A stretch of 64,000 bases of DNA from a bacterium (GCA_041648665.1 JBAZOP010000002.1:50262-114261); one strand, 5' to 3'. Counted from the first letter of the stretch, positions 3,035 through 39,500 are shown. Made by a program: numbers and translations. Notes: a model not told the origin generated them from the sequence alone.

Positions 3035-3790
3035 CTACTTTCCTCGGGGCGCGGGGCGTCCCGCCTCCAGCAGGTCGTGCTTGAACAGGTGCGCGCGCCC
3101 CTCCAGGAGCCGCGTGGCCGCAGCGAGGAACTCCGGCCAGCTGATGGCCCGGGCCCGCGCGTCGTGGTTCCACTTCCCGACCTTGACAAGGTCGGTCCGG
3201 TCCCGCACCGCGTCGATCGCCCGCAGCCCCTCCGCGGCGTCCAGCACCGGCTCGACGCTGACCCAGGTCCGCACGCCCGCGTCCCGAGCCAGATCGAGGG
3301 CACGGAGGCGCTCCGCGATGGGCGGCGCATGCGGCTCCCAGTGCTGCCGCATCGCCTCGTCCAGGAAGCAGATCGTGGTGCCCAAGCTCCAGCCGCACCG
3401 ATGGAGCTGCGGAAACAGCGGTACCACAGCCAGCGGGTTCTTGGTCAGCACCGTGACCTGGAGCAGCTCACGCTCGGCGATCTCTAGCGCGACCCCGAGG
3501 GCCTCCGCCTGCTCCGCCGTGCCGAGCGGGTCGGTCGCGAAGCTAAACAGGATCTCCCGGGGATCGCCGCGGTGCGCCGCAGCCGATGCCTCGAACCGCG
3601 CCCGCCAGTTTAGCTTCGGTCGCACCGTGGGCCAGTCCTCGGGGCGCACGCGAAGAGCGGCAGACGCATAGCAATAGCGACAAGCGTGGGCACAGCAGAT
3701 GGCGAGGTTGCACGCCAGCGGGGCGTACTCCAGGGCGCGCCCCCGGGGCGTGTAGATGAGATCGTCGCGCGCGGCCATGCGGTCATGCAT
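3035..3790 (-). CDS. radical SAM protein, SplB/DNA-photolyase-like (COG1533-like)
   Basis: CCAHACRYCY fits CX3CX2C with the CYCY signature. The ORF-track start at 3814 is the TTG of the TTGACA -35 box. The real start is probably ATG MHDRMAARD (3790) or MAARD (3778), possibly leaderless. Confidence 0.6.
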   Translation of the reverse strand: MHDRMAARDDLIYTPRGRALEYAPLACNLAICCAHACRYCYASAALRVRPEDWPTVRPKLNWRARFEASAAAHRGDPREILFSFATDPLGTAEQAEALGVALEIAERELLQVTVLTKNPLAVVPLFPQLHRCGWSLGTTICFLDEAMRQHWEPHAPPIAERLRALDLARDAGVRTWVSVEPVLDAAEGLRAIDAVRDRTDLVKVGKWNHDARARAISWPEFLAAATRLLEGRAHLFKHDLLEAGRPAPRGK

Positions 3791-3817
3791 ACGACAGCGG
3801 TGGGCGTTTGTCAACGA
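3775..3817 (-). promoter_or_regulatory. promoter, TTGACA, 17 nt, TATGCA (conserved motif family)
   Basis: CGTTGACAAACGCCCACCGCTGTCGTATGCATGACCGCATGG on the minus strand. An ATG 7-13 nt after the -10 suggests a leaderless transcript. Confidence 0.4.
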
Positions 3818-4098
3818 GGAAGTGGGCCGGCAGCCGCGAATGATACCTGCTGCAATATGTTGAACAGTTTTCTGCCACGCTTCCGCCGCACTCGCTCTGC
3901 TTCCTGTTCCTCTGGCGTTAGGCTATCCCACCATTCCTGCGCCTTGCGCTTCACCTCTGCCTGCTCCCGCTCCCGCCGTTCCTCTGTGCGCGACCCGATG
4001 CCGTGCGCCCTTCGCCACTTCGCTTCGCCCATGGGTAACCTCATCGCTTTTCCAGCATACCTCTCCGTTGGCATGCCGATCAACCGCGCAGGCGCCAC
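3811..4098 (-). CDS. hypothetical basic/acidic small protein
   Basis: Strong SD GGAGGAAAGGGG about 8 nt upstream of ATG (MAPARLIG). The stop overlaps the radical SAM region. Confidence 0.45.
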   Translation of the reverse strand: MAPARLIGMPTERYAGKAMRLPMGEAKWRRAHGIGSRTEERREREQAEVKRKAQEWWDSLTPEEQEAERVRRKRGRKLFNILQQVSFAAAGPLPR

Positions 4099-5976: not shown

Positions 5977-6050
5977 TCGGGGCGAGAGGATTCGAACCTC
6001 CGACATCCAGCTCCCAAAGCTGGCGCGCTACCAGGCTGCGCTACGCCCCG
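5977..6050 (-). tRNA. tRNA-Pro (anticodon TGG)
   Basis: Minus-strand read CGGGGCG-TA-GCGC-AGCCTGGTA-GCGC-G-CCAGC-TTTGGGA-GCTGG-ATGTC-GGAGG-TTCGAAT-CCTCT-CGCCCCG-A. All four stems pair, with U8, GG in the D-loop, TTCGAAT in the T-loop and anticodon TGG. No encoded CCA. Confidence 0.8.
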
Positions 6051-8884: not shown

Positions 8885-10115
8885 TTGACTTTCATCTGTT
8901 CATATGGGACTCTTGCATTGTGAGACGGACAATCATCATCGCGCTTGAGCCAGCCAACGAGCAGCTTGCTGCACTCACGGAGACCTGCGACCTGTTCACC
9001 GAGGTCTTCAACGCCGTCTGCACAGGCGGGTGGCAACACGCCGAAAAGAACGGGGTCCGCCTCCACCACGCCTTCTACCGGCCCCTCAAGGCCCAGCACC
9101 CGACCCTCGTGAGCGACCTGCATGTCCAGGCCCGCGTCAAAGCTACGGAGGCTATCCGAAGCGCGTTGGCCCTCAAACGCAAAGGCAAGAAAGTCTCCTG
9201 CCCGCACTCCACCTCTTGCCCCCCGCGCTACAACCTGCACACCTTCAAGATCGACTGGGCTTCCCGCACCGTGCGCCTGTCCACTACGGCGGGGCGCCAG
9301 ACCATCCGGTTCGCCGTCCCCGTTCACGCGGAGCGGTACGCCGAGCATCCAGTGGACACTGCCGATCTCGTCTGCTGCGAAGGTCGTTGGGCCATGCACG
9401 TCTCCGTCACCGTGCCTGCGCCCGCCGTCGATCCCGTCAATGACGTGGTGGGCGTGGACCTCGGGCTGGCCCAGCCAGCCGTCACGTCCAACAACCAGTT
9501 CCTGGGCAAAAAGGCATGGCGCTCTATCGAGAACCGGCTCTTCAAGCTGAAGCGCAGGCTGCAAGAACGAGGAACCAAGAGCGCCAAGCGCCATCTCAAA
9601 AAGATCCACAAGTCGCAAGCCAGGTTCCGCAGAGATTGCGACCACGTGCTCTCCAAGAAAGTTGTCCAGGCTTGCCCCGCTGGCGGCACGATCGTCTTGG
9701 AAAACCTGACCGACATCCGCAAGCGGGCACGGGCCAAGAGCAACACCGAAGCCAAGCGCCGCCTTCACGGGTGGTCCTTCGCGCAGATCAAGATCTTCAT
9801 CGCGTACAAAGCCGAGGAACGGGGTTGTACGGTGGCCGGGGTCGATCCCCGGCATACCTCGCAACGATGCTCTCGCTGTGGACACACGGCGAAGAACAAC
9901 CGCCGCTCCCGCGCCGTGTTCAAGTGTCGGAAGTGTGGATTTTCCCTCCACGCCGACTTGAACGCAGCTCGCAACATCGCGGCCAAGTACCAGACCCACG
10001 TCGGCATGCCCGATATGGGTGGGCACCCTGTCAACGTGCCTATCGCGGGAGTGGGTGAACTCGTTCATTCAGCTACCTGCAAGCCGCCCGCTTTAGCTGG
10101 CGGTCGTTGACGTAG
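8885..10115 (+). mobile_element. IS200/IS605-family TnpB-only insertion (IS1341-like); ends not defined
   Basis: Carries the intact TnpB gene, has lower GC than its flanks, and the CTGTTGAC promoter-like motif sits at its 5' side. Its 3' end overlaps the convergent gene 10073..10810. Confidence 0.5.
8920..10110 (+). CDS. tnpB: TnpB (OrfB) RuvC-like RNA-guided endonuclease, IS200/IS605 family
   Basis: RuvC-I VVGVDLGL, RuvC-II TIVLENLTD, zinc finger CSRCGH...CRKCG, RuvC-III HADLNAARNIA. All catalytic D/E/D residues are present. Confidence 0.8.
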   Translation: MRRTIIIALEPANEQLAALTETCDLFTEVFNAVCTGGWQHAEKNGVRLHHAFYRPLKAQHPTLVSDLHVQARVKATEAIRSALALKRKGKKVSCPHSTSCPPRYNLHTFKIDWASRTVRLSTTAGRQTIRFAVPVHAERYAEHPVDTADLVCCEGRWAMHVSVTVPAPAVDPVNDVVGVDLGLAQPAVTSNNQFLGKKAWRSIENRLFKLKRRLQERGTKSAKRHLKKIHKSQARFRRDCDHVLSKKVVQACPAGGTIVLENLTDIRKRARAKSNTEAKRRLHGWSFAQIKIFIAYKAEERGCTVAGVDPRHTSQRCSRCGHTAKNNRRSRAVFKCRKCGFSLHADLNAARNIAAKYQTHVGMPDMGGHPVNVPIAGVGELVHSATCKPPALAGGR

Positions 10116-10810
10116 CAGCGGCGCTGGAGCAGGTGGATGGGCTCCCCAAGTGCCGCCGGCTCCCCCGCCCGGGCCTGCACGGCCTCCTCGCTGAGCCCAG
10201 CGTAGAGGTCCAGAGACAGCAGCCGCTGGTCGATGCCAGCGCGGACCTCCCGCTGGTCGGCGATGACGGCCTCCACCGGGATCGTCTCGGCATGCATCAG
10301 CCGCCCGAGCCGCTCCGAGGTGTCCCGGATTTGCTTGTACAGGGCGGGGATCTCCTCCGCCTTGGCGCGCTCCAGGGCCTGCCGGTAGGCGGGGATCGGC
10401 TCGTCGCCGCGCAGGGCCAGCGCCGCGGCCTCCCCGCCGCCACCCTCCTCGGGGAGCGCCCGCCCGGGGGCCACGCCAAGCCGCAGCATGAGCGCCTCCA
10501 GGTCGCCAGTCAGCGCCCGCAACTGCTCCTTCTGCCGGGCGCCCGCGGCCCGGAGGACCGCTGGACCGTCGGGGCACAGCGTGCACGATGCCGCCAAGGC
10601 ATCGTAACTAATGCGCGTCACATACTCACCGGCGCCATCCTCGATGACACCACGCAGCAGGACGTAGTTGCTGCCTAAGCGGACGACGCAACCGAGCCAG
10701 CGCTGCCCATCGTCCGGATCCATTACCCAGTACCACTCGCCCACCAGTGGCAGGTCTTCCGGCCGCTCGCGTGTTTTTGTAGGCGCGCACACCTTGTCCA
10801 AGTTGCTCAT
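10073..10810 (-). CDS. hypothetical protein
   Basis: Start MSNLDK with SD GGAGG, directly downstream of a perfect TTGACA-17-TATAAT promoter. Confidence 0.5.
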   Translation of the reverse strand: MSNLDKVCAPTKTRERPEDLPLVGEWYWVMDPDDGQRWLGCVVRLGSNYVLLRGVIEDGAGEYVTRISYDALAASCTLCPDGPAVLRAAGARQKEQLRALTGDLEALMLRLGVAPGRALPEEGGGGEAAALALRGDEPIPAYRQALERAKAEEIPALYKQIRDTSERLGRLMHAETIPVEAVIADQREVRAGIDQRLLSLDLYAGLSEEAVQARAGEPAALGEPIHLLQRRCYVNDRQLKRAACR

Positions 10811-10859
10811 CGCGCCTCCGCAGCAGGTTCGCCGCCAGCATCCTCACTGGCCATTTCCT

Positions 10860-10896
10860 TTCAATTATAACCAGTCGGTATGCGTTTGTCAACATA
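10860..10896 (-). promoter_or_regulatory. consensus sigma70 promoter, TTGACA, 17 nt, TATAAT (conserved motif family)
   Basis: ATGTTGACAAACGCATACCGACTGGTTATAATTGA on the minus strand. Confidence 0.6.
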
Positions 10897-12594
10897 TTAG
10901 GATCGCGTCGTGACGCGCAGAATTTCACCGCTGCGGAGGCCGACCACGGTGTCCCCGGCCGCGACCAGCCGCAACCCGGCGACCGCGGGATCGGCAATGC
11001 GACGGCCGACCTGCGCCCCGCGCTCGGGGAAGAGGGACAGCTCGCCGCCCTCGTCGATCAGGGCCACCACGCCCCGGGCAAGTCGGGCGACGTTCAGCGC
11101 GCCATGACCCACGTTACGATCGGCCCAGCGCAGCTGGGCGCCCGCACTGCCCACCGCGTACACGTAGCGGTCGACGCTGCCCCCGCGCTCGGCCAGGACC
11201 AGCAGGGCGCGCCCCCCGGCCCAGGCGTCCACCACGCGGGCGCCGTCCAGATCCGCCAGCCGCACCTGGTCGCTGCGGCCCGGGGCCGGGAACACGTTCG
11301 CGTACCACGCGCCCAGCACGCTCTGGAGGGCCACGCCGGGGTACAGCTGCGTCGCCAGGGGCGCCACGTTGGCCACCACGCGCGGGGCGGCAACGAGCTG
11401 CCCCCCCAGGCGCGCCAGCTGCACCTCGACCACGTGCTCGCCATCGTGGGCGTACAGGCGACCCTCGGCGGTGGTCAGCGCCGCAGCCTGCACGACGAGG
11501 GGCACCTCCGCCCCGCCATCCAGGGCGCGCATCCGGAGGCGCTGGCGGTCGATCCAGGCGTAGAGCGGCGTGCCGTCGGGGGCCCATGCCAGGGATCCCG
11601 CGCCATCCACGGGGACCTGCCGAGGAGGCCGGGTGCCGTCCCATAGCGTCACCGCGCACCCCGCTGGTCCCCGGACCAAAGCTGCCTCCGCGCCGCCGGG
11701 GATCGCCACGTACTCCAGCACATCCCCATCCACGACATGGAGCACGCGCAGGTCCACGTGCCCGGCGCTCGAAGCAGGCCGCAGCCCACGCATGGGCGCG
11801 CTGGCTTGGGCGCTGGCGGGCGGGGGATCGCGGCGGCCGGCCTCGAACACAGCGCGGTACCAGTCGCGATAGGCGCTCGGGATCACGTCTAGGGGCGGCA
11901 CCAGCGGGGGCACCGACACGGCGGCGTTGAACACCGAGAGGTTGGCGCGCATGCGATCGGGCAGACCACGCACCGTGGGGTGGCGCCCCTTGTAGGGGTG
12001 GATGCCAACGAACAGCTGGAAGGTCACGATGCCCCAGGAAAACCAGTCGGATCCTGTGGTCCAGCAGCCCTGGGCGTGCCAATCCCGCACGCTCTCCATC
12101 AGGGCGGTGGCCGGGAAGCGAGGCGTCTGGTAGGAGTCCACATCGATGAAGCACACCTCCTCGAAGGTGGCGGTGGCCAGGAAGTTCATCTCGTTGGCGT
12201 CCACCACCAGCACGCGGGCGGCGTGCACTGCCTCCATGCTGGCGCGCATGCGCTGCACGAGGCGCAGCACCGTGGAGCCATCCAGGCCGTGCCGCGCCTG
12301 GAATGCCCGGGTGAAGAGCTGGCAGAGCGGGAAGGCATCCGGAACACGGCGCATGCTGTAGCCGACCGGGCGCCCCCGGCCGTCCAGCAGCACGCGCTGC
12401 GGCCGGATCACGCTGTCGTCAGCGATCGCGCTCAACTCGTCGATCTTAGCCTCGGGGACCATGCGCTCGGGCTTCAGGTAGACCTTGAACGCCTCGTCCC
12501 CGTGAGCGTAGACCTGCCCCTCGCCGCCCGCGCCCAGGAAGTTGGCCTGGGTCAGCACGACCTCGCCGCCCCCCCGCATTCGGTACTTCGTCAT
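10897..12594 (-). CDS. Ser/Thr protein kinase-like protein with C-terminal repeat/beta-rich domain
   Basis: Gly-loop LGAGGEGQVY, AFKVY lysine, a D-x4-N catalytic loop (VVDANEMN), DVD in the DFG position, and DWFSWGIVTFQLFVGIHPY as the subdomain IX equivalent. Last gene of the vWA-PP2C-kinase triad. Confidence 0.6.
   Translation of the reverse strand: MTKYRMRGGGEVVLTQANFLGAGGEGQVYAHGDEAFKVYLKPERMVPEAKIDELSAIADDSVIRPQRVLLDGRGRPVGYSMRRVPDAFPLCQLFTRAFQARHGLDGSTVLRLVQRMRASMEAVHAARVLVVDANEMNFLATATFEEVCFIDVDSYQTPRFPATALMESVRDWHAQGCWTTGSDWFSWGIVTFQLFVGIHPYKGRHPTVRGLPDRMRANLSVFNAAVSVPPLVPPLDVIPSAYRDWYRAVFEAGRRDPPPASAQASAPMRGLRPASSAGHVDLRVLHVVDGDVLEYVAIPGGAEAALVRGPAGCAVTLWDGTRPPRQVPVDGAGSLAWAPDGTPLYAWIDRQRLRMRALDGGAEVPLVVQAAALTTAEGRLYAHDGEHVVEVQLARLGGQLVAAPRVVANVAPLATQLYPGVALQSVLGAWYANVFPAPGRSDQVRLADLDGARVVDAWAGGRALLVLAERGGSVDRYVYAVGSAGAQLRWADRNVGHGALNVARLARGVVALIDEGGELSLFPERGAQVGRRIADPAVAGLRLVAAGDTVVGLRSGEILRVTTRS
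10903..10925 (-). terminator. possible hairpin terminator (CGCGTC-AC-GACGCG inverted repeat) after the kinase gene
   Basis: The inverted repeat sits immediately 3' of the kinase stop. No strong U-tract. Confidence 0.25.
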
Positions 12595-13403
12595 GCGCTG
12601 CCCTCCGCGCGCTCCAGGACCACCGCGCCCATGCTGAGGTCGTCATCGTGGCGCCATCCCCGCTGAGCGGCCTTCCGCAGGAACGCCTGGAGGCGCCGCT
12701 GCACAAACACGCCCTGGAGCCCCTTGAACGCCATCAACTCGCCCACGATCACCTCAGAGGGGATGGGCTGGTGGTCCGCATCCAGGAAGGAGCGCACACC
12801 ATCGCTGAACACAGCCACGACGGCGGCGTCCTCGATGGTCCGCTGGAAGGGCTGCACGCCCCGGCATCGCAGCTCCTCGCCATCCGGGCCACGCGCCACC
12901 CACTCCTCACGCTGCAGCACGGCCGCCATGCGCTGGTCGTCCACGAGGTAGTTGGCGTAGCGAGGGTATCCGTCGGGAGCCTCAACTTCCCAGATCCGCA
13001 GGGCGCCCCCCGGGTCCCGGGCGGCGATCACGCCGTCCCCGGTGCACGAGACGAAGGCCGAGGATCTTTGGCCCAGGGCGAAGACCAACGTGGCGTCCAT
13101 CGCCAATGGGTCCAGATTCCAGCACGTTTTCTGGAACAGACGGCGCCGGAGGTCGATCACCTCCATGGCGCCCCAACACCACCACGCGGGATCTGCCATG
13201 GAAGAAATGCGGCCTATTCCAACCTCGCAGCTCAGGGTGAGCAGCCGCGCGCCAACGTCCGTGTCGGGGCTGCCCGAGCAGCCGTCCGAGACGATGGCGT
13301 AGGGGCGGCCCTCTTGCGTCCGTCCGCACCGGGCGTAGTCCTGGCAGACCCGGTGGGCCGCCCCGATGACGTAGGCGCTGTCCGCGTTCGCCCGCATCTC
13401 CAT
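12591..13403 (-). CDS. PP2C-family Ser/Thr protein phosphatase
   Basis: Start MEMRANAD overlaps the vWA stop as TGATG. SDGCSG and SDGVRSF motifs, and a C-terminal DDLSMGAVVL typical of PPM phosphatases. The upstream track extension is GC-rich low-complexity sequence. Confidence 0.65.
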   Translation of the reverse strand: MEMRANADSAYVIGAAHRVCQDYARCGRTQEGRPYAIVSDGCSGSPDTDVGARLLTLSCEVGIGRISSMADPAWWCWGAMEVIDLRRRLFQKTCWNLDPLAMDATLVFALGQRSSAFVSCTGDGVIAARDPGGALRIWEVEAPDGYPRYANYLVDDQRMAAVLQREEWVARGPDGEELRCRGVQPFQRTIEDAAVVAVFSDGVRSFLDADHQPIPSEVIVGELMAFKGLQGVFVQRRLQAFLRKAAQRGWRHDDDLSMGAVVLERAEGSA

Positions 13404-14155
13404 CAGAGGCTGAAGGACATCGGCTGCGAGGGGCCGCCGGTTCCGAGCGCCTGGGACTGGGCGCTGATGCTCTTGCTCACGAAGGCCGCCAACTTGGCCA
13501 GCGTCCGCGCGCTCGCGTCCTTGGTCTCGACGTACTGTCCGATCCCAGCCTCCTGCTGGAAGGCGACCAGGGCGCCGCTCACCTGCGGGTCGTTGCCCAC
13601 CCCGACGCCCACCAGGATGGACACCTGGCTCTCCAGCGCCTCGGACTGGATGGCGCGCTCCAGCTGCGCCCGCACCTGCCCCGGGCCCCCCGCGGAGGCG
13701 TTGTCGCAGCCGTCGGAGATGATCACGGCCACCCCGTTCACGGCGTAGTCGCTGCCGACCAGGGTACGCGCGTAGTCGGCCTGCGCGTGCACGGCGTGCT
13801 CCGCCGCGTCGAACAGCGCCGTCATGCCGCCGCACGACAGGCAGCCGCGGTAGTCGTCGAGGTTGCAGTTGGCGAGCAGCTTGAAGCCGTGCACCTCCCG
13901 CATGTGGTCGTTGAAGGTGATCATCCGCAGCATCAGGTTGTCGGCCCGGGGAGACAGCTTGCAGGCGTTGACCACCTCGCGGATGGCCTGCTCCATATCC
14001 GCAGCGTAGGGCCCCACGGACCCGCTCACGTCCACGGCCAGCGTGACCAGGGTGTACTCGGCCGCCCCCAGGGCGTCCAGGCGCGTGGCGCTGTACCCGA
14101 ACGCGGTGGTCGGGAGCGCGCGCTCCTCCATGGACAGGTCGTTGATCTTCGGCAT
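13403..14155 (-). CDS. von Willebrand factor A (vWA, TerY-like) domain protein
   Basis: MIDAS motif LAVDVSGSVG. SD GAGGGAA. Start at MPKINDL (M137 of the track ORF). Confidence 0.65.
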   Translation of the reverse strand: MPKINDLSMEERALPTTAFGYSATRLDALGAAEYTLVTLAVDVSGSVGPYAADMEQAIREVVNACKLSPRADNLMLRMITFNDHMREVHGFKLLANCNLDDYRGCLSCGGMTALFDAAEHAVHAQADYARTLVGSDYAVNGVAVIISDGCDNASAGGPGQVRAQLERAIQSEALESQVSILVGVGVGNDPQVSGALVAFQQEAGIGQYVETKDASARTLAKLAAFVSKSISAQSQALGTGGPSQPMSFSL

Positions 14156-14187
14156 CGGTTCCCTCGCCTTCCTGCTAGCGCACCGCG

Positions 14188-14991
14188 CTAGCGCAGCACG
14201 TCCACCGTGGTCGACGTCTGCATCCCCTTCGCCGTCATTTCGGCGACGAAGTCCTCTTGGAGCTTCTCGAACCCGGGCACCGGGCTGAGAGCGTCGGTGA
14301 GCAGCACGAACTTCTGGACGTAGTCCGCGCTGCTGAACCCGGCCGCCACGTCCCGGATCGTGTTGGCGACGCAGTGGCTGCCCGCCTCGCCCGCGATCAG
14401 GATCAGGTCCGCCTCCTCCAGCGCCTGGATGAGGCGCAGGTTGATCTGGGTCGACGGATCTGCCGGGTCCGGCACCTCGGCCTTCACCCCGGAGTAGTGC
14501 TCCGTGAACAGGTTGCTGCCCTTGCTCACGAAGTCGATCACGCCCGGGCCCGCGGCCGCCCAAGCGTTGAGCGCCTCCAGCACGGCCGGCACCAGGGTGG
14601 CGCCCGGGCTACCGATCAGGCAGTGCGGGGGCCAGATGCACAGCGGGTACCGGTGTCCGGCCTCCAGCGCGCGCACGTAGTCGAGCATGCGGCGCGTGAG
14701 GCTGGGGATGCACGGCGTCCAGGCGCCGCTCTCCACGTCCTGTGGCGTGATGATCGTGAACGGCGTCGGCGGCTGGCCGTCGGGCCCGCGCCACATGGCC
14801 GGGTGCGCCACGTCCAGCAGGTGATGCTGGTCGAGCGTCGCGTGGATGTCGTGCAGCCGCGCCCCCAACCGCTGGACCATGGCGGCCACGCGCTGCATGT
14901 CCTCCGCGGCGCCAGGCACGAACAGCGCCCCAGTAGGGTCGCAGAAGTCGTGCTGCGCGTCGATCAGGAACAGGTCCACCTTCTTCGTCAT
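14188..14991 (-). CDS. pncA: nicotinamidase PncA (isochorismatase/cysteine-hydrolase family)
   Basis: DLFLIDAQHDFCDP matches the isochorismatase N-motif. DIHATLDQHH are metal-binding His. IWPPHCLIGSPGA matches the PncA signature WPPHCV. Catalytic Cys in GEAGSHCVANT. Confidence 0.7.
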   Translation of the reverse strand: MTKKVDLFLIDAQHDFCDPTGALFVPGAAEDMQRVAAMVQRLGARLHDIHATLDQHHLLDVAHPAMWRGPDGQPPTPFTIITPQDVESGAWTPCIPSLTRRMLDYVRALEAGHRYPLCIWPPHCLIGSPGATLVPAVLEALNAWAAAGPGVIDFVSKGSNLFTEHYSGVKAEVPDPADPSTQINLRLIQALEEADLILIAGEAGSHCVANTIRDVAAGFSSADYVQKFVLLTDALSPVPGFEKLQEDFVAEMTAKGMQTSTTVDVLR

Positions 14992-15003
14992 CGGATCCTC
15001 CTC

Positions 15004-15753
15004 TCAGGCCGGCTCCCGCCGGAAATGCGGCGGCACGCAACGCTTGTGCGCGCTCACCGTGTGCAACTCGTCGATCTTCCGCGCCACCTCCACCTCGATG
15101 GCCTCCCCGCGCAGGTAGGCGTCGATGGCGCCGTACACGTTGGACGTTCCCAGGATGCCCCCCAACTCTTCTTGGTCGGTCTGGCCGATCCAGAGGCCAG
15201 CCGTCGGGGGACGATCTACCAGCGCCTCCGGCAGCCCAAGCAGCCGCCCCAGCTGGCGCACCTCGCCCTTGTCGAACGCGAGGAGCGGCTCCAGGTCCAC
15301 CCCGTGATCGCCGTACTTCGTGGCGTACCCAATGTACGCCTCGGCCGCGTTGGTCGTGCCCACCACGAGGCCACCACGGTGGTTCGCCACCGCGTAGAGG
15401 GCCACCATGCGCAGGCGCGCCTGCATGTTGCCGCAGGTCAACGCGTTCAGCAGGGGATCACCTGTTGCGAAGCGCAGCTCCTTCTCCATCGCCTCGTATG
15501 CGCTGCGGATGTTCACCGGGAGCGCGTCCGCGGTGCACCCCAGGTGCTTCACCAGCGTGTTCGTCCACCGCACATCCGGGTCGGCCCCACACGGCATCCG
15601 GACCAGGACCGTGTGATCGCGGCCTACCGCGCGCACACACAACGCAGCCACCACGGAGGAGTCCACCCCCCCGCTGATGCCCACCACGGCGCGGTGTAGG
15701 CCGCTTAGCAGATGCTCCCGCAGCCAGCCGCACAGGGCATCCACGTCGCCCAT
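15004..15753 (-). CDS. nadE: NH3-dependent NAD+ synthetase NadE
   Basis: PP-loop GISGGVDSS. The C-terminal half of the track ORF is the real gene. The ATG lies 2 nt after the PncB stop. Confidence 0.75.
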   Translation of the reverse strand: MGDVDALCGWLREHLLSGLHRAVVGISGGVDSSVVAALCVRAVGRDHTVLVRMPCGADPDVRWTNTLVKHLGCTADALPVNIRSAYEAMEKELRFATGDPLLNALTCGNMQARLRMVALYAVANHRGGLVVGTTNAAEAYIGYATKYGDHGVDLEPLLAFDKGEVRQLGRLLGLPEALVDRPPTAGLWIGQTDQEELGGILGTSNVYGAIDAYLRGEAIEVEVARKIDELHTVSAHKRCVPPHFRREPA

Positions 15754-15755
15754 CG

Positions 15756-16928
15756 TCACGCACCCACGAGTCCCAGCGCCTGCTTGCATCGCTCCACCTC
15801 CTCTGGATCTCCCGAGTGCTTCGTGGGCACATCGGACAGCTTGACCGCGGGGCGCCACGGATTGGTCGGCCACGCCCGCGCCCGCGTCATCTTGATAACC
15901 ATGTTGAGGGGCCGCACCCCCGGGACGTCGCAGGTCAGCGACGTGCCAAGGAGGAACCGCGCCCCGATGCGTCCCTCCATCGCTGACCGAATCGCCTGGA
16001 CGTCGTCCAGGCCCAGGCCGTCGGAGAAGACCATGACCTTCGACCGTGGGTCGATGCCGAGCCGCTCGTAGTGGGCGATCACCTGCTGCGCGCACAGGAG
16101 CGGATCCCCAGAGTCCTGCCGCACGCCGTCGTAGATCCGCGCCCGGAGCCCGTTGAAGGCCCGCAAGAACACCGGCGTCGTGTAGGTGTCCAGGAGCCCG
16201 ATCCCGAGCGCTCCCCGGTAGGTCTCCACCCAGCGGTCGAGCGCGATCGCCGTCGCCTCCTCGTAGCCGAGGATTGCGCCATGGTACATGGTCCACTCGT
16301 GCGCCACGGTGCCCACGCAGGGGAGCCCCATCTCCAGTGCCATGCCCACGTTGCTGGTGGGGATGTTCAGGGCCGCGAGGACCCGCTGGTGTATCTCCCG
16401 CGAGAAGCGGCGCCGCGTGCCGCCCTCGACCACCGGCAGTTGATCCCGGCGGATGAGCAAGCCCTTGGCCGCCGCCCGGTTCACTACGTCCGCGTCGCGG
16501 GCGGGCAGGCTGCCCCCGTGCGACAGCAGGTGGTAGCGCTCGGAGATCAGCGCCATCAGCGGAACCTCCCAGAGCACGGTGCGCAGCCATGGACCGCGCA
16601 CGATCAGACGCAGACGGCGCTCCTCGTCCAAGCTGCACTCCACGATCTCGGACGGGTCGAAGCGGTAGCGCGCCAAGAAGGAGCGGTACCACGGCTGCAC
16701 CGGCAGGACGCGCCCCAGGCCGTCAACCTCGGACTCGGTGAGCGCTGGAGCCGCGACCAGCTCCTCATCGATCCAGCTGCGCAGCTGGGCAAAGGCGGCA
16801 GGCCACGCCACAGGCGTCCGCACGATCAGCTCGTACTCCGCCTCCGCCTGGGGGTAGTGCTGCCCGATGGCTTGCTGCATCGAAAACTTGTAGAGGTCGG
16901 TATCGAGCAAGTGCATCACACGCTCCAT
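15756..16928 (-). CDS. pncB: nicotinate phosphoribosyltransferase (PncB/NAPRTase family)
   Basis: N-terminal LLDTDLYKFSMQQA is the NAPRTase signature. 390 aa. Confidence 0.75.
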   Translation of the reverse strand: MERVMHLLDTDLYKFSMQQAIGQHYPQAEAEYELIVRTPVAWPAAFAQLRSWIDEELVAAPALTESEVDGLGRVLPVQPWYRSFLARYRFDPSEIVECSLDEERRLRLIVRGPWLRTVLWEVPLMALISERYHLLSHGGSLPARDADVVNRAAAKGLLIRRDQLPVVEGGTRRRFSREIHQRVLAALNIPTSNVGMALEMGLPCVGTVAHEWTMYHGAILGYEEATAIALDRWVETYRGALGIGLLDTYTTPVFLRAFNGLRARIYDGVRQDSGDPLLCAQQVIAHYERLGIDPRSKVMVFSDGLGLDDVQAIRSAMEGRIGARFLLGTSLTCDVPGVRPLNMVIKMTRARAWPTNPWRPAVKLSDVPTKHSGDPEEVERCKQALGLVGA

Positions 16929-16957
16929 TCCCGTTCGTTCATGCCTCTACGCCTGAT

Positions 16958-17536
16958 TCACCTGATGGACGCCGTGGCCCCGGCCTCGGCCAGGAGCCTC
17001 ACCGCCCGATCCGCCTCCTCCTTCGACACGCCCATCATCACCGTCGAAGGGGCGCAGTCGGTGAGGTCTTTGGAGTCCTTCAGCCCCAGGCCGGTCAACT
17101 CCCGGATCTCCTTGATGACGTTGATCTTCCTTTCGCCCACCATCTGCAAGATCACGTCGTACTTCTGCTCGGCAGATCCCGGGTGCAACCCCGCGTCCAC
17201 CTCTTTCAGGAACGCAGGCACATCGACAACGCTGCCACGCAGGTCGGCGATGGCCGCGAGGAGGCGCAGGTGATCGATCGGATCCGGCATTCGCAACCTG
17301 TCGAGGATGTCGGCGACACGCTCCCTCTGCTCGTCATCCTCCATCGCCTCCTTGGCGAGGATGCTTCTCTGTTCCTCCAAATCGTAGATTTTCTCGCGGA
17401 ACGCATCGTTCTCCGCCCGGAGTTGCGGGAGATGCTCCCGGAGGGTCGCGATCTCCGCTTCCATCTCGTCCGCCGTCTGCTGCTTCTTCTTCTTCTCGGC
17501 CATGGCATCCTCCTGTTTCGTTGTTTTGCTACCCAC
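16958..17536 (-). CDS. coiled-coil protein with ribosomal protein bL12 (L7/L12) C-terminal-domain homologue
   Basis: The C-terminus KINVIKEIRELTGLGLKDSKDLTDCAPSTVMMGVSKEEADRAVRLLAEAGATASI aligns with the L7/L12 CTD ([47 protein letters not shown]). The N-terminus is charged coiled coil. Confidence 0.6.
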   Translation of the reverse strand: MGSKTTKQEDAMAEKKKKQQTADEMEAEIATLREHLPQLRAENDAFREKIYDLEEQRSILAKEAMEDDEQRERVADILDRLRMPDPIDHLRLLAAIADLRGSVVDVPAFLKEVDAGLHPGSAEQKYDVILQMVGERKINVIKEIRELTGLGLKDSKDLTDCAPSTVMMGVSKEEADRAVRLLAEAGATASIR

Positions 17537-17999
17537 GCGCCCCGTCGTCCGCCAGCTCCCCGTCGCGGTCCTCGGACGCGCGCAGGCAGTCCTCGCAGAT
17601 ATCGCCTACTGCGCCGAACGGGATCGGCTCCCCGCAGTCGTAGCACTCCCGGTCGAGCTGCCCGGCCTCCCGCGCCGCATCGAAGGCGCCCTCGGTGGGC
17701 GGGAAGACCAGGTCCGGGTCGTCGATCCGCATCATCATCACCTTCACCGGCACGTAGCGCTGGAGCGCGCGCCAGACCGCGCGCTGCAGGTCCGTCGCTC
17801 GCGTCTCCGGCGCGCACCCCCCGGTGAGGTAGCCGTCCCCGTGGCCGTGGACGCTGAAGCGGACCGGCTGGCCCGGTGGCGCCCACATGTCGCACTCCAG
17901 GGACAGGTTCCACTCCTCCTCCAGCGCCTCCTGCGCCATCCGCTGCTCCCGCTGGGATGCCACCTCCACGTCCACCCACACACGGTATTCTCGGCTCAT
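17529..17999 (-). CDS. hypothetical protein with C-terminal zinc ribbon (CYDCG...CEDC)
   Basis: Start MSREYRV overlaps the upstream stop as ATGA. Confidence 0.45.
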   Translation of the reverse strand: MSREYRVWVDVEVASQREQRMAQEALEEEWNLSLECDMWAPPGQPVRFSVHGHGDGYLTGGCAPETRATDLQRAVWRALQRYVPVKVMMMRIDDPDLVFPPTEGAFDAAREAGQLDRECYDCGEPIPFGAVGDICEDCLRASEDRDGELADDGARG

Positions 18000-18271
18000 G
18001 CGTCCTCCTTGCCGAACAACTTGGCGAGCAGCATGGACGCCGCCGCGTGCCAGCCCGCACGCTCCAGCGCGGCGCACACCTCGCCCTGCACGGCCGTCAC
18101 GCCGCTGTCCCAGCCGCTCTCCCAGGCCGCCCGAACCAGCGCCCCCCGGGCATCCTCCGGCCAGCGCCCGCGAGTCTCTGGCACCAGGCGCGCCAGGCAG
18201 AGATCCCGCTCGGATCCGTGCTGCCGCTCAGCGATCTCGCTATCCTCGGTCCACCTGACGGTCTTGCTCAT
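17996..18271 (-). CDS. hypothetical protein
   Basis: 91-aa ORF inside the operon. Confidence 0.4.
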   Translation of the reverse strand: MSKTVRWTEDSEIAERQHGSERDLCLARLVPETRGRWPEDARGALVRAAWESGWDSGVTAVQGEVCAALERAGWHAAASMLLAKLFGKEDA

Positions 18272-18280
18272 GGTCGACTC

Positions 18281-18544
18281 CTAGAACGCCACGCACGCGC
18301 CCTGGTCGCATGGAGACCTGGGCAGCGACACCGCGCGCGCCAGATCCGCCACCGCGATCTCCAGGGCGTGGCGCACGTCCGCGTAGCACGCCTGCATCTC
18401 CACAGCCAGCTTGTCCCACGCCCACAGGCGCGCGTACACTGCATCGACGTGCTCCTCCGCCACCGCGAAGGCGTTCTCCAGTCCGCGCTCCTCCGCCACG
18501 GCCCGGGCCGTGGCCACCACCCGCTCCCTCACCTGCCGGTTCAC
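18281..18544 (-). CDS. hypothetical protein
   Basis: GTG start (VNRQVRE) overlaps the upstream stop as GTGA. The track N-terminal extension is low-complexity. Confidence 0.35.
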   Translation of the reverse strand: MNRQVRERVVATARAVAEERGLENAFAVAEEHVDAVYARLWAWDKLAVEMQACYADVRHALEIAVADLARAVSLPRSPCDQGACVAF

Positions 18545-36229: not shown

Positions 36230-36562
36230 CTAGATGATGAATACATCTGACCCGTCGGTCTGCAATGTCACCGACGCTCCGTCCACGTTGATGACCAAAT
36301 CCAAGGCGGACCCCTCTATCAATTCCCCAGCCTCGGTCGCTACTGTAATGTTGTTCAACGACGCATTCATCCCGCTGTCCTTAACGGTGATCGTGTTCCC
36401 GCCCTTAGCAATCCACGCGGACTTCAGGTTGATCGTCACCGGAGCCGTTGCCGTATGGCTAACCAACAGCGTGGCCATGCGGTCATCCGCCAACACGTCA
36501 TAGGAAACCGCTGCAACATCGTAGTGCTCGTTGCGGATATATCGCTGTCCACCTCGCTCCAT
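36230..36562 (-). CDS. hypothetical protein (lower GC)
   Basis: 110-aa ORF. Confidence 0.4.
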   Translation of the reverse strand: MERGGQRYIRNEHYDVAAVSYDVLADDRMATLLVSHTATAPVTINLKSAWIAKGGNTITVKDSGMNASLNNITVATEAGELIEGSALDLVINVDGASVTLQTDGSDVFII

Positions 36563-39500
36563 TAGAACGCCTCCACTTCTGGGTCAATCACGTTATATCC
36601 GTCCACAATCAGATTCGTCACCGTAGCACCAATGTCGATGCCCAACCGGCAATGCGCCATCTTGATGTCCATCCCACCACCACCGGAATCGGTTATAGAT
36701 GGGTTAGCACCAGGGGTAGTTTTCCGAATCGTGCAATCGTATAGCACGGCGGGTGCGGTGTCGTCGTACAAATCAATCACTGGAAAATCACCCAGCATGA
36801 TAAGTGTACACCCAGATAGCTTATTGGAACTACCAAGGTGCCAGACATCTGTACCAGTACGAGTTGAACGGTAACATCTGATAAAGGTACACTTTTCAGC
36901 GCCACCAACCCCTCCAACCCGCGAACCCCAGCAATCCTCCCCGCCAACACAATCAGTGTACACCCCGTTGCATGAACCTGGGACAGCCGCACCGCCAGAA
37001 CCGAAGGAACGTTCACCCGCAGTACACCGAGTAACGCTGCCTTTGACCGTACAACACGCAACAGAATCAGCGGTAACGATGCACGATCCAAACGACCTAA
37101 CCCCGGCGTGACAATCAGTGGCGACCCCCTGGAACGCAGCCGTAACACCAGCAGGGGGGTTATTAGTCACACCAAAGCACCCGTCACCCCCTGTAACCCT
37201 ATTCAGAATAGCGTCACATAGCGCGTTGTTATCAACCGACGTACCGAAACATCCGTCCCCTCCAATGGTGTCCTCTATCGTCCCGCTGCAAGTTCCAGGG
37301 CTACTTGCACCATATCCAAAGGAATAATCCCCAGACTCGCAATGCTTGGCAGTTCCAGTAAACGACGCTGATGCGGGTTGCACAGTAGCAGCACCAAAGG
37401 AATAAATCCCAGCAACACAATGATCCAAATCGCCGCTACAAAGCATATCATACATCGTAGAATCATCAGCACCGCACCCAAAGCAACGCTCCGTTCCGAT
37501 GCAGTCAGACGCCTCTCCGCTGAAAGTGCTATGCCCATGTTCCGCATATCCGTAACTGTAGCCACGGGCCTCACAATCTACCATTGTCGCGGAGCACTCC
37601 GCGTTTCCACCAGTTCCAGGAGGAGCGCCGGTCAACACAGAAACACCAAACGCATAGTTGCCTGGAACAACACATCGAGTCAGCGTCCCAGCACACAACA
37701 CATTTCCACCATTGCTCGCAACACCAAAACTACATGTGCCAGCAACACAGTCCATTGCTGTACCATCAAACGTTGCCCCCACATCTGGACCTGAAGACGC
37801 GCCAAAGCTCAATGAACCCGCTGTACAATTCTTGTAAAGCCCAGTAGCAGAACCACCATAAATGAACCCGTTCAAGTCCGTGTGGCAATCGTACCATGCA
37901 GATGAACACGACACCCCCATAAGCATCACCGCATAAGGCGGCGATACACCGGTCCCACGGAAGAACAACTCCTTGAACACACTACTAGGACTATCCTTCC
38001 GCATCAACAAACAAGCCTGTCCAGGAGTAGTAGCTATTTTCAAAATGCCGATCCGCTCCATGCGACCGCTATCAGCATCCCACCCCAGATCTATCCCATC
38101 AGGCACCAAGATCCTGGTCGAAGGTGTGCGAGCATCCCCGGACGCCTCCAGCACAGGAGAACTCCCCGCGCCGACAACCGACACATACTCCTGATCCAGA
38201 TCCTTGCTGGCACCCATAACATAGGTTCCGCTCTGCAACTCAATGGTGAGCATGTTCGACGCGCTAAGTGCGACGCCTAACGAAACCCAGTTTGGAGCAC
38301 AATCATACGTGTGCTCGAACAGCCTCCACCCTGCTGTCGGATCGGAGGACAAATCCAACGACGCAGGAATCCTGACGCAATCGTGCGCTGAACGGTATTC
38401 GCTTTCCCCATTCCACCAGCCGCGACCGTAGGCTCCAAGATTATCCAACGTGAAACCGACGAAAGACAGCCCACCGAGATCGGGACACGCCATCGCCATG
38501 GTTACGAGTGACGACTCATCGAAGACGATCGCGTTGCAAGTCGTGTGGTACTGTGCATTGACACTAGGATCCGGACCCATCCCAAAGTAACTGTCGATCA
38601 GAGCCTTCGACCGATGGATCACCGCGCCCCTGACGTTTCCGTACCCGCCATCAACCCTACCGTAAGCGTACGGATTCCCAAAGATGTCCCTGTCAAAGTT
38701 TGCGAAGTACTCGCAGTCCTCCATCCAGTTGATCCTGCACACCCCACACATGAACACTGACGACCTCGCGGCATAGATATCGATACGGTTATCCTGAAAC
38801 CACCCACCAGGAACGTCACTGGTGTCAACGTGCGCACAGATCCACGAATGGTTCCCACCGTCATCTTGCGCTGGGCTGTCCTTCAAATAGAGTTTCATGA
38901 CCCTGGTGGCGTCCAACTCATCGGCAGTTCCGCTGGCGTCGTTGAAAACATAGAAGCTCTCACGGACAGCGCCATTGATCTCCACGACATGAAAATCCGG
39001 CATCGGGAAACCGCAGCCTGCGTTCGCGTTCTGAACCTGTATACTGCCATCAACCAGCCTGAACCCTTGCGGGTAATTGTCATCATGAATCTTCAACCCC
39101 GGTTCCCATCCCACAGATGGCTTGCGCACAAATCTGACCGTTGGCGCATCCTTGTCCGTAGCCAGCCCGTAGGTATTCCACAGCTGAGGATCAATCGTCC
39201 ACATGATGGCATTTGGCGTGGACAGCCGACAGTTGTCCCCCGTTATCGTGATGTGCATCCTCTGCGGAAGATACGTTGCCATCCCCTCGGCGTACACTCC
39301 GGGAGCAAGGTGGAACGTGAGGGGCTGCAAGAACACTGCAACATCCAACGGCCCAGGAATCGGTTGCGCATCACACGCCGCTTTGAACGTCTGGTACGGC
39401 TTCCCGATGGACCCGTCCCCCGTCACATCATTCCCGTCCACAGCGTCCACGTAGATCTCGCCGTTGCCGGTGATGGCCACGCTGCCTGTGATCGGCACCC

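What the first reader, a model, noticed from the sequence alone, without database searches (positions are those of the whole stretch)
14188..16928. Phage-encoded NAD+ salvage set: PncB, NadE and PncA in one operon
Contiguous genes encode a nicotinate phosphoribosyltransferase (LLDTDLYKF), an NH3-dependent NAD synthetase (SGGVDSS PP-loop) and a nicotinamidase (WPPHCL, DxHxxxD...HH). That is three of the four Preiss-Handler steps from nicotinamide to NAD+; only NadD is missing and could be host-supplied. Phage NAD+ reconstitution pathways have been described as counter-measures to NAD+-depleting immunity (Thoeris, DSR, some CBASS). A PncA/PncB/NadE-based version directly upstream of a TerY-P-like triad would be a distinct variant.
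Basis: partly seen in the sequence, partly recalled or inferred. Interest (0 to 1): 0.75.

Follow-up and report, generated by a model that had tools for sequence, protein, structure and literature searches.

The report
Phage NAD salvage genes with kinase switch
A large uncultured phage carries three enzymes that recycle nicotinamide into NAD+, fused into one operon with a sensor-like trio (adhesion-type domain protein, phosphatase, kinase), and that pairing recurs in well over a hundred other phage contigs (67 found from the nicotinamidase, 80 listed of 159 from the kinase) and in bacterial chromosomes, which suggests a regulated NAD+-recycling module that has not been described.

Summary
On the minus strand lie PncB (16928-15756), NH3-dependent NadE (15789-15004) and a divergent nicotinamidase (14991-14188). 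PncB and NadE pass NCBIfam equivalog cut-offs. The third protein hits no Pfam model. It does keep the Asp/Lys/Cys triad and the metal ligands, and its AlphaFold model matches nicotinamidases first.

No NadD/NMNAT was found in the 64-kb window. Related phages carry a NadD-like gene inside the same block.

The main new result is that the downstream vWA/PP2C/kinase trio is not a chance neighbour. Nicotinamidase, vWA, PP2C and kinase form a conserved four-gene core:
- 57, 55 and 48 of 60 non-redundant loci found from the nicotinamidase carry the three partners.
- 69 of 80 loci found from the kinase carry the nicotinamidase.
- PncB, NadE and NadD are repeatedly inserted between the core genes, in different orders.
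- The cassette also sits in bacterial chromosomes among housekeeping genes.

The trio resembles TerY-P in architecture only. Its kinase ends in a beta-propeller, and no TerY-P defence profile matches.

Preiss-Handler gene clusters in jumbo phages were already reported bioinformatically, and no experiment links them to immunity. Verdict: a real, non-recent NAD+ salvage operon. It is a new variant through its coupling to a phospho-switch. The counter-defence role is plausible but untested.

The parts
15756..16928 (-). PncB, nicotinate phosphoribosyltransferase (390 aa). It makes NaMN from nicotinate and PRPP.
   Evidence: TIGR01514 scores 309 bits against a cut-off of 269.55. Pfam NAPRTase and NAPRTase_N both hit. 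It aligns full length to 2IM5 and 1YIR, and the GTxAHEW motif is kept with H210. NCBI names the identical protein nicotinate phosphoribosyltransferase.
15004..15789 (-). NadE, single-domain NH3-dependent NAD+ synthetase (261 aa from the ATG at 15789 with a GGAGG SD; alternative ATG at 15753).
   Evidence: TIGR00552 scores 199.6 bits against a cut-off of 63.65. Pfam NAD_synthase 5e-56. The PP-loop SGGVDSS is present. PDB best hits are 3FIU (2.5e-36) and 4XFD (6.6e-34). Start codons are mapped.
14188..14991 (-). Divergent nicotinamidase (PncA-like cysteine hydrolase, 267 aa, with about 60-80 extra residues relative to canonical PncA).
   Evidence: D11/K157/C207 and D54/H56/H63/H123 are invariant. 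Sequence-profile and fold searches put nicotinamidases first. The gene sits next to PncB in 17 of 60 phage loci and 23 of 80 bacterial loci.
13403..14155 (-). vWA-domain protein (250 aa) with an intact MIDAS motif and a conserved Ser-rich C-terminal tail.
   Evidence: The window protein's own Pfam VWA hit (20.8 bits, E 4.8e-4) is below the 23.8-bit gathering cut-off; VWA or VWA_2 hits several family members (VWA_2 9, VWA 7, of 16; overlap not resolved). D39xS41xS43, T109 and D145 are invariant, as are tail serines S224, S226, S228, S231 and S240. It follows the nicotinamidase in 57 of 60 loci.
12591..13403 (-). PP2C-type protein phosphatase (270 aa). Its ATG overlaps the vWA stop codon.
   Evidence: Pfam PP2C_2 1.5e-9 for the window protein and 15 of 15 family members. 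The metal-binding Asp motifs are invariant. The overlap is shown.
10897..12594 (-). Ser/Thr protein kinase (residues 1-260) fused to a C-terminal seven-bladed beta-propeller (280-565). Its ATG overlaps the PP2C stop.
   Evidence: Pkinase hits 9 of 12 family members. G23/G24, K37, D132, N137 and D151 are invariant, and E53 is invariant in A4 (12 sequences) but not listed among the conserved columns of A7 (36 sequences). The AF2 model has pLDDT 90.4. Foldseek finds LRRK2 kinase-WD40, WDR5 and the clathrin terminal domain.
10864..10892 (-). Perfect sigma-70 consensus (TTGACA-17-TATAAT) immediately after the kinase stop. It marks the downstream boundary of the six-gene block.
   Evidence: a 12/12 match, the only promoter-like site in 9800-18300 (0.4 expected from shuffles).

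Best explanation
This is a six-gene phage operon that joins a Preiss-Handler NAD+ salvage set to a reversible-phosphorylation trio.

Chemistry (inferred from homology):
- The nicotinamidase deamidates free nicotinamide to nicotinate plus NH3.
- PncB condenses nicotinate with PRPP to give NaMN.
- NadD, supplied by the host here and phage-encoded in some relatives, adenylylates NaMN to NaAD.
- The NH3-dependent NadE amidates NaAD to NAD+. It could re-use the NH3 that the nicotinamidase releases.

The vWA, PP2C and kinase-propeller genes are translationally coupled to each other. They are the nicotinamidase family's most constant neighbours in phages and in bacterial chromosomes. I infer that they form a phospho-switch that gates or organises the salvage enzymes. 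My best guess is that the propeller recruits the conserved Ser-rich tail of the MIDAS-vWA protein for phosphorylation, and that PP2C reverses it.

For the phage, the pay-off is to keep NAD+ up during infection by recycling nicotinamide. This includes nicotinamide released by NADase-type immunity.

Shown: gene identities, catalytic residues, synteny and distribution. Inferred: substrate flow, regulation, and the counter-defence benefit.
For: Enzyme identities.

Operon packing with overlapping start and stop codons.

Conserved core:
- Starting from the nicotinamidase, 60 non-redundant loci carry vWA in 57, PP2C in 55 and kinase in 48.
- Starting from the kinase, 80 loci carry PP2C in 78, vWA in 71 and the nicotinamidase in 69.

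NAD genes are interleaved with the trio in different orders:
- PncA>vWA>PP2C>PncB>NadE>Kin
- PncA>vWA>PncB>NadE>PP2C>NadD
- PncA>vWA>NadE>PncB>PP2C>Kin

Further support:
- A NadD-like HxGH/ISST nucleotidyltransferase lies in 9 of 60 and 17 of 80 related loci.
- Other guests inside the module include Tpt1/KptA, NADAR, NUDIX and a SLOG domain, which I know as NAD+/ADP-ribose-associated families.
- Bacterial versions carry PncB next to the cassette. Some have PncA-PncB alone.
- In a Capsulimonadaceae chromosome the cassette lies between leuB, P-II, leuA and a sugar kinase, so it is cellular and not a prophage.
- A Variovorax megaplasmid places the nicotinamidase-vWA pair beside two NUDIX genes, a macro domain gene and NAD kinase.
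- The genes are not a recent pick-up.
- Phage NAD+ rebuilding counters NADase defences in three other pathways: 10.1101/2024.02.11.579819 and PMC13464706.
Against: - No biochemical or infection data exist for any member.
- The window protein itself misses Pfam PF00857 and the NCBIfam PncA cut-off.
- No NadD in the window, so the pathway is incomplete as encoded. The other ~97 kb of the 161-kb contig could not be read.
- Only about a third of related loci carry PncB, NadE or NadD within 8 kb (22 of 60). The core can therefore work without a phage-encoded downstream pathway.
- Nothing shows that the trio acts on the salvage enzymes. Synteny is the only link.
- The closest kinase relative (L150, 67% identity) has no trio or nicotinamidase within 6.6 kb upstream.
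Confidence: 0.55

Rival explanations
1. The block is a general metabolic booster and not a counter-defence. It simply raises NAD+ supply for a large phage's own needs, with no specific relation to NADase immunity.
For: Jumbo phages with complete NAD+ synthesis sets are reported together with many NAD+-consuming enzymes (PMC11662467; PMC7824862). The same cassette exists as a cellular locus among housekeeping genes, which points to ordinary NAD+ homeostasis.
Against: No NAD+-consuming enzyme was found in the 64-kb window. The starting substrate, free nicotinamide, is exactly the product of NADase effectors. Three other phage NAD+ pathways were shown to act as counter-defence. The two roles are not exclusive.
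Confidence: 0.25
2. The four-gene core (nicotinamidase plus vWA/PP2C/kinase) is a conflict or signalling system in its own right, and PncB/NadE are optional add-ons. Possible actions are removing nicotinamide to starve competitors' nicotinamide-dependent NAD+ rebuilding, relieving nicotinamide inhibition of NAD+-consuming enzymes, or superinfection exclusion like TerY-P defence.
For: The core is far more conserved than PncB or NadE. TerY-P-like triads act as stand-alone antiphage systems (Gao 2020, as summarised in PMC11090510). The kinases hit kinase models of defence systems (PD-T4-6, mad6, MkoA).
Against: No TerY model matches, and only one PP2C member weakly hits a PADLOC PP2C model. The only recurrent guests in the module are NAD+ salvage genes, and bacterial cassettes carry PncB. 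A nicotinamidase has no obvious toxic or abortive effector activity. The Capsulimonadaceae locus is not in a defence island.
Confidence: 0.15
3. NadE works as an NMN synthetase, amidating NaMN directly. The route would then be Nam > NA > NaMN > NMN, finished by an NMN adenylyltransferase instead of by NadD acting on NaMN.
For: The best solved-structure match is 3FIU (2.5e-36). From memory this is the Francisella NMN-synthetase form of NadE. The phage enzyme is a short form of about 250 aa, like it.
Against: The margin over ordinary NadE (4XFD, 6.6e-34) is negligible, and specificity residues could not be checked because the paper is not held. An adenylyltransferase is still required. The NadD-like genes in relatives fit either order.
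Confidence: 0.1
4. The 267-aa protein is an isochorismatase-family amidase for a different substrate, so the salvage set is only PncB plus NadE.
For: No Pfam or PHROG hit, and identity to solved nicotinamidases is about 20%. It has about 60-80 extra residues. Other family members (maleamate amidase, biuret hydrolase, carbamoylsarcosine amidase) appear further down the fold list.
Against: The metal site (D54/H56/H63/H123 and the WPPHC motif) is invariant. From established structures this site binds the free pyridine nitrogen and distinguishes nicotinamidases. The top 11 fold hits and all top sequence-profile hits are nicotinamidases. The gene recurs next to PncB.
Confidence: 0.07

Closest known systems
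Preiss-Handler NAD+ gene clusters of 'NAD-jumbo phages' (pncB-nadD-nadE, e.g. Kuafu_71; PMC11662467)
   Same: Phage-encoded PncB and NadE are clustered, the same deamidated route to NAD+ is used, and pncA is also noted in such phages. The evidence is bioinformatic only.
   Different: Here NadD is absent from the window and PncA is included. The phage contig is 161 kb, below the 200-kb jumbo cut-off. The cluster is embedded in a conserved vWA/PP2C/kinase module that the paper does not mention.
NARP1, NARP2 and NARP3 phage NAD+ reconstitution pathways (10.1101/2024.02.11.579819; PMC13464706)
   Same: The phage rebuilds NAD+ from breakdown products or precursors, and nicotinamide is the entry substrate as in NARP1 and NARP2.
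   Different: The enzymes are entirely different: there is no Adps/Namat, no Nampt/Nmnat and no PnuC/NadR. The route goes through deamidated intermediates, needs four steps and a host enzyme, and carries an associated kinase/phosphatase/vWA trio. It has not been tested experimentally.
TerY-P triad (Anantharaman 2012; Gao 2020 defence system; described in PMC11090510)
   Same: It has a MIDAS-vWA protein, a PP2C phosphatase and a Hanks-type Ser/Thr kinase in one operon, and is proposed to act as a phosphorylation switch.
   Different: The kinase C-terminus is a seven-bladed beta-propeller, not a zinc ribbon or OB fold. No TerY or TerY-P profile in PADLOC matches. The constant partner is a nicotinamidase, not restriction or CoCoNuT genes.
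Bacterial PncA-PncB nicotinamide salvage (E. coli, M. tuberculosis, yeast Pnc1)
   Same: The catalytic triad, metal site and fold are the same, and the downstream enzyme (PncB) is the same.
   Different: Identity to solved nicotinamidases is about 20%, there are extra insertions, curated PncA models miss the protein, and it is coupled to the trio.

Membership tests
Nicotinamidase (PncA/Pnc1, isochorismatase-like cysteine hydrolase) | Catalytic Asp-Lys-Cys triad | tested here: met
   D11, K157 and C207 align with D8/K96/C138 of Mtb PncA and with the yeast Pnc1 triad. They are invariant in 40 homologues.
Nicotinamidase (PncA/Pnc1, isochorismatase-like cysteine hydrolase) | Metal site (Asp, His, His, His) that binds the pyridine nitrogen, with the WPxHC motif | tested here: met
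   D54, H56, H63, H123, W120 and P121 are invariant and align with D49/H51/H71 of 3PL1. The equivalence of H63 to Mtb H57 is inferred from spacing.
Nicotinamidase (PncA/Pnc1, isochorismatase-like cysteine hydrolase) | Passes curated family models (Pfam PF00857 Isochorismatase; NCBIfam NF008623 PncA) | tested here: not met
   No Pfam hit. NF008623 scores 27.3 bits against a cut-off of 174. 17 of the 120 listed homologues carry a precomputed PF00857 hit.
Nicotinamidase (PncA/Pnc1, isochorismatase-like cysteine hydrolase) | Nicotinamidase fold | tested here: met
   The AF2 model has pLDDT 93.7. The Foldseek top 11 hits are all nicotinamidases, led by 2WTA at 2e-14 with target-normalised TM 0.79.
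Nicotinamidase (PncA/Pnc1, isochorismatase-like cysteine hydrolase) | Hydrolyses nicotinamide to nicotinate | not testable with these tools
   Needs an enzyme assay.
PncB (nicotinate phosphoribosyltransferase, TIGR01514 type) | Scores above the curated equivalog cut-off and has both NAPRTase domains | tested here: met
   TIGR01514 scores 309 bits against 269.55. The subfamily model NF003704 scores 338.9, below its cut-off of 379. Pfam NAPRTase_N and NAPRTase both hit.
PncB (nicotinate phosphoribosyltransferase, TIGR01514 type) | Conserved GTxAHEW histidine (the ATP-coupled phosphohistidine; role recalled from memory) | tested here: met
   VGTVAHEW with H210 aligns with GTMAHEW of 1YIR and GTHPHEW of 2IM5.
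NadE (NH3-dependent NAD+ synthetase) | PP-loop ATP pyrophosphatase domain above the curated cut-off, with no glutaminase domain | tested here: met
   TIGR00552 scores 199.6 bits against 63.65. SGGVDSS is present, the protein is 249-261 aa, and no CN_hydrolase hit was found.
Complete Preiss-Handler route encoded by the phage | NadD (NaMN adenylyltransferase) present | tested here: not met
   None in the 64-kb window. The rest of the 161-kb contig could not be read. NadD-like genes occur in related loci.
NARP1 | Adps (PRPS-like) plus Namat (NAMPT-family transferase) | tested here: not met
   No PRPP-synthase-like or NAMPT family was found in the window. PncB hits the nicotinamide-PRT PHROG only weakly (3e-5) but passes the nicotinate-PRT equivalog cut-off.
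NARP2 | Nampt plus Nmnat | tested here: not met
   Neither was found in the window.
NARP3 | PnuC transporter plus NadR-like kinase/adenylyltransferase | tested here: not met
   Neither family appeared in the Pfam inventory of the window.
TerY-P triad | vWA protein with an intact MIDAS motif, a PP2C phosphatase and a Ser/Thr kinase in one operon | tested here: met
TerY-P triad | Kinase fused at its C-terminus to a zinc ribbon (or an OB fold in the defence version) | tested here: not met
   The C-terminal 285 residues fold as a seven-bladed beta-propeller. The definition is taken from PMC11090510.
TerY-P triad | Matches TerY-P profile models of a defence database | tested here: not met
   No window protein hits at E<=0.01. 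Among 43 family members there is no TerY hit and one weak PP2C hit. The kinases hit other kinase models.

The most novel reading that the evidence does not exclude
Nicotinamidase, MIDAS-vWA, PP2C and kinase-propeller form a previously undescribed, widely distributed four-gene system shared by large phages and several bacterial phyla. In it a phosphorylation switch controls nicotinamide salvage. In phages it would recruit PncB, NadE and NadD to form a fourth, deamidated-route NAD+ reconstitution pathway that defeats NADase immunity.
Probability: 0.3. Interest if true: 0.8.

Novelty: new variant of a known kind. Interest (0 to 1): 0.6.

Why it matters
NAD+ depletion is a major bacterial anti-phage strategy. 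The three phage counter-pathways validated so far all use amidated intermediates or ADP-ribose. A deamidated (Preiss-Handler) route would widen that picture, and it would exploit the host's essential NadD.

The tight and reciprocal linkage of a nicotinamidase to a vWA/PP2C/kinase trio matters more. It occurs in phages and in cellular chromosomes. It gives a concrete functional context to a TerY-P-like switch, a class whose mechanism is unknown. It also suggests that NAD+ salvage can be controlled by Ser/Thr phosphorylation. Both ideas can be tested directly with a six-gene cassette.

Tried and rejected
- Nucleotide search against GenBank phages found only one uncultured 485-kb phage, and only over the nicotinamidase gene. 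A protein search added two more huge uncultured phages and a 6.5-kb uncultured 'Bacteriophage sp.' contig from human faeces (33% identity), and no cultured phage.
- An exact-protein lookup of the nicotinamidase found no contig on record. The remaining ~97 kb of the source contig therefore could not be inspected for NadD.
- PADLOC scans did not support calling the trio a TerY-P defence system.
- I considered that PncB might be a Namat-like ADPR-PP transferase, a nicotinate version of NARP1. I rejected this because no PRPS-like Adps is present and PncB passes the nicotinate-PRT equivalog cut-off.
- I considered that bacterial copies are prophage-borne. I rejected this for Capsulimonadaceae, where the flanks are leuB, P-II, leuA and a sugar kinase, and module GC equals flank GC.
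- I tried to read the Francisella NMN-synthetase paper to check NadE specificity residues. It is not held.
- The Rfam scan of the window found only one tRNA.
- Literature searches for a phage nicotinamidase acting as anti-defence, or for a nicotinamidase-vWA-PP2C-kinase module, found nothing.
Full report
**What is there**

The window is about 67% G+C, and most called genes, including all of the block studied here, lie on the minus strand. It encodes myovirus structural proteins: tail sheath, baseplate wedge, gp9/10-like, gp25 and two gp19-type tube proteins. The nicotinamidase-like protein, the kinase and PncB are identical to proteins of one NCBI MAG contig of 161,166 bp labelled only 'bacterium' (locus tags WC683_01410 for the kinase and WC683_01425 for the nicotinamidase). 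This is therefore a large uncultured phage.

At the reported coordinates three co-directional genes are present exactly as described.
- PncB runs from 16928 to 15756.
- NadE runs from 15789 to 15004. The ATG at 15789 has a GGAGG Shine-Dalgarno sequence and overlaps the PncB 3' end. A second ATG lies at 15753.
- A 267-aa protein runs from 14991 to 14188, 12 nt after NadE.

Three more genes follow directly.
- A vWA protein runs from 14155 to 13403.
- A PP2C phosphatase runs from 13403 to 12591, and its ATG overlaps the vWA stop.
- A 565-aa kinase runs from 12594 to 10897 with an ATGA overlap.

A perfect TTGACA-17-TATAAT promoter consensus sits just after the kinase stop and precedes the next gene. 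The six genes therefore look like one transcription and translation unit.

**Enzyme identities**

PncB passes the NCBIfam equivalog cut-off (TIGR01514, 309 against 269.55 bits). It has both Pfam NAPRTase domains and aligns end to end with solved PncB structures, including the GTxAHEW histidine.

NadE passes TIGR00552 (199.6 against 63.65 bits). It carries the SGGVDSS PP-loop and has no glutaminase domain, so it is the NH3-dependent type.

It hits no Pfam or PHROG family and only grazes the PncA model. Three independent lines nevertheless identify it as a nicotinamidase.
- By single sequence the two best solved matches, and 4 of the 9 listed (E up to 10), are nicotinamidases; with a 40-sequence profile, 7 of the 8 solved matches are nicotinamidases (Pnc1, Mtb PncA, P. 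horikoshii PncA, 29IV, Leishmania PnC1 3R2J, pneumococcal 3O90/3O94), the eighth being an unassigned cysteine hydrolase (3IRV).
- Residues aligning with the catalytic Asp/Lys/Cys (D11, K157, C207) and the metal ligands (D54, H56, H63, H123, within WPPHC) are invariant across homologues of 57-81% identity.
- An AlphaFold model (pLDDT 93.7) has nicotinamidases as its top eleven Foldseek hits in the PDB.

**NadD**

No NadD/NMNAT was found in the window. tblastn with nine phage NadD-like proteins gave nothing better than E = 0.08. A Pfam scan of the 44 remaining ORFs found no cytidylyltransferase-like, Nudix, PRPP-synthase or NAMPT family. The other ~97 kb of the contig could not be retrieved.

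**The unexpected part: the neighbours**

A scan of IMG/VR with the nicotinamidase returned 67 loci, many on contigs of 160-550 kb. With the Logan-derived locus L001 added, these reduce to 60 non-redundant loci. In them the nicotinamidase is followed on the same strand by the vWA gene in 57, the PP2C in 55 and the kinase in 48. PncB occurs in only 17, NadE in 13 and a NadD-like HxGH/ISST nucleotidyltransferase in 9.

The reverse scan started from the kinase family. Of 80 loci it found PP2C in 78, vWA in 71 and the nicotinamidase in 69. The four genes are thus a reciprocal, conserved core.

When PncB, NadE or NadD are present they are often inserted between the core genes, and in different orders:
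- PncA>vWA>PP2C>PncB>NadE>Kin
- PncA>vWA>PncB>NadE>PP2C>NadD
- PncA>vWA>NadE>PncB>PP2C>Kin
- the window's own PncB>NadE>PncA>vWA>PP2C>Kin

Shuffled order with a retained neighbourhood is the classical signature of functional linkage. The closest relatives keep the window's order but carry a LAGLIDADG endonuclease and several small ORFs inserted in the block. Other, non-recurrent guests inside the module include Tpt1/KptA, NADAR, NUDIX and a SLOG domain, which I know as NAD+/ADP-ribose-associated families.

**The cassette is not phage-specific**

A scan of GTDB representative genomes found 245 loci. Among the best 80, vWA occurs in 45, kinase in 40, PP2C in 27 and PncB in 23. Some loci have PncA and PncB adjacent without the trio. 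Many of these contigs are short, so the counts are minimum figures.

In complete Capsulimonadaceae chromosomes the order is PncA-vWA-PP2C-kinase-PncB. Module G+C equals that of the flanks. The neighbours are leuB, a P-II protein, leuA, a PAS histidine kinase and a sugar kinase. This is a cellular locus and not a prophage.

In Variovorax megaplasmids the nicotinamidase-vWA pair lies beside two NUDIX genes, a macro-domain gene, a deoxyribosyltransferase-like gene and NAD kinase.

**The trio itself**

The domain assignments are solid at family level.
- PP2C_2 hits 15 of 15 members.
- Pkinase hits 9 of 12.
- VWA or VWA_2 hits several of the 16 vWA members (VWA_2 9, VWA 7; overlap not resolved); the window protein's own VWA hit is sub-threshold.
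- The MIDAS motif, the PP2C metal aspartates and the kinase catalytic residues are invariant.

The vWA protein ends in a strikingly conserved Ser-rich tail, FVSxSISSQSQALGTGGPSQ. The kinase carries a C-terminal seven-bladed beta-propeller.

By the published definition, TerY-P kinases end in a zinc ribbon, or in an OB fold in the defence version (PMC11090510). No TerY-P profile in PADLOC matches these proteins. The trio is TerY-P-like in architecture but is not a demonstrated member.

**How it most likely works**

The chemistry follows from the enzyme families. Nicotinamide is converted to nicotinate plus NH3, then to NaMN using PRPP, then to NaAD by the host NadD, then to NAD+ by NadE. NadE could re-use the NH3 that the nicotinamidase releases.

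The trio is inferred to be a reversible phospho-switch coupled to this pathway. My specific guess is that the propeller docks the vWA tail for phosphorylation and that PP2C resets it. I also guess that the vWA state gates or scaffolds the enzymes. This is inference from anatomy and synteny only.

The benefit to the phage, sustaining NAD+ when NADases liberate nicotinamide, is by analogy with NARP1-3. A plain metabolic-booster role is a serious rival. A stand-alone conflict role for the four-gene core cannot be excluded.

**Origin**

The genes are not a recent host pick-up. Their GC3 (0.86-0.97) matches that of the structural genes (0.90-0.93). The nearest PncB relatives (58-59% identity) lie on the same contigs as the nearest nicotinamidase relatives, while the closest named bacterial PncB reach at most 46%.

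**Comparison with what is known**

Preiss-Handler clusters (pncB-nadD-nadE) and pncA in jumbo phages were reported from metagenomes without experiments (PMC11662467). The validated phage pathways are NARP1 (Adps plus Namat), NARP2 (Nampt plus Nmnat) and NARP3 (PnuC plus NadR). None uses PncA, PncB or NadE.

I found no description of the nicotinamidase-vWA-PP2C-kinase module, including in the comparative jumbo-phage survey. The public record annotates the nicotinamidase and the kinase as hypothetical proteins.

**Verdict**

The salvage set alone is a new member of a kind already noted. Its conserved coupling to a phospho-switch trio, shared with bacteria, makes it a new variant worth experimental follow-up. 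The counter-defence function is unproven.

Noticed in passing
window 16958-17536 (-): The gene just upstream of PncB encodes a 181-192 aa protein. It has a charged coiled-coil N-terminus and a ribosomal L7/L12 C-terminal domain (Pfam 3.7e-22). It is not conserved next to the module in related loci.
   Followed up: partly
window 8920-10110 (+) and 42503-43957 (+): Two plus-strand ORFs, in a genome whose genes lie mostly on the minus strand, are 27% identical to each other. They are very probably the two ORFs that hit OrfB_IS605 / Cas12f1-like TNB (TnpB) in the pooled Pfam scan, which suggests IS605-family elements inside the phage.
   Followed up: partly
window 36562-39687 (-): A 1041-aa protein with Cys- and Gly-rich 'CxxGxxSFG'-like repeats lies in a distinctly lower-GC stretch (0.53-0.58 against about 0.67) among the baseplate genes. 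It may be an exchanged tail fibre or receptor-binding protein. It was not in any family scan I ran.
   Followed up: no
window 10864-10892 (-): A perfect 12/12 sigma-70 consensus promoter (TTGACA-17-TATAAT) sits 5 nt after the kinase stop and ahead of a 245-aa gene with no PADLOC hit (not scanned against Pfam on its own) (10810-10073).
   Followed up: partly
window 5977-6050 (-); 3035-3922 (-): A single tRNA-Pro(TGG) gene, confirmed by ARAGORN and Rfam. A radical-SAM domain protein lies nearby.
   Followed up: no
L149 (Variovorax sp. WDL1 plasmid 2, NZ_LR594690.1, 650675-665358): An 816-kb linear replicon places the nicotinamidase-like 'cysteine hydrolase' and its vWA partner in an NAD/ADP-ribose-themed block. 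The block holds two NUDIX genes, a macro domain gene, a nucleoside 2-deoxyribosyltransferase-like gene and NAD kinase, but no PP2C or kinase.
   Followed up: partly
L150 (IMGVR_UViG_3300037067_016086): The closest kinase relative (67% identity) has no PP2C, vWA or nicotinamidase within 6.6 kb upstream. The module can therefore be split in some genomes.
   Followed up: partly
L230 12071-12979; L232 12036-12956: In the closest relatives a LAGLIDADG-type homing endonuclease gene is inserted between NadE and the nicotinamidase. An AAA ATPase gene lies just before the kinase.
   Followed up: no
L001 4086-6757: A MoxR-type AAA ATPase and a second, CoxE-like vWA protein lie about 4 kb upstream of the module in a related phage.
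   Followed up: no
14 related loci, e.g. L015 1545-2126, L022 1859-2410, L056 1727-2356, L063 1822-2385: An ORF family of ~200 aa whose sequence looks like a calcineurin-type metallophosphoesterase (judged by eye; the family was not scanned against Pfam) recurs in 14 of 60 related loci. It often lies about 5.5 kb upstream of the nicotinamidase. One window ORF also hits Pfam Metallophos (3.8e-18), but I did not identify which ORF it is.
   Followed up: no
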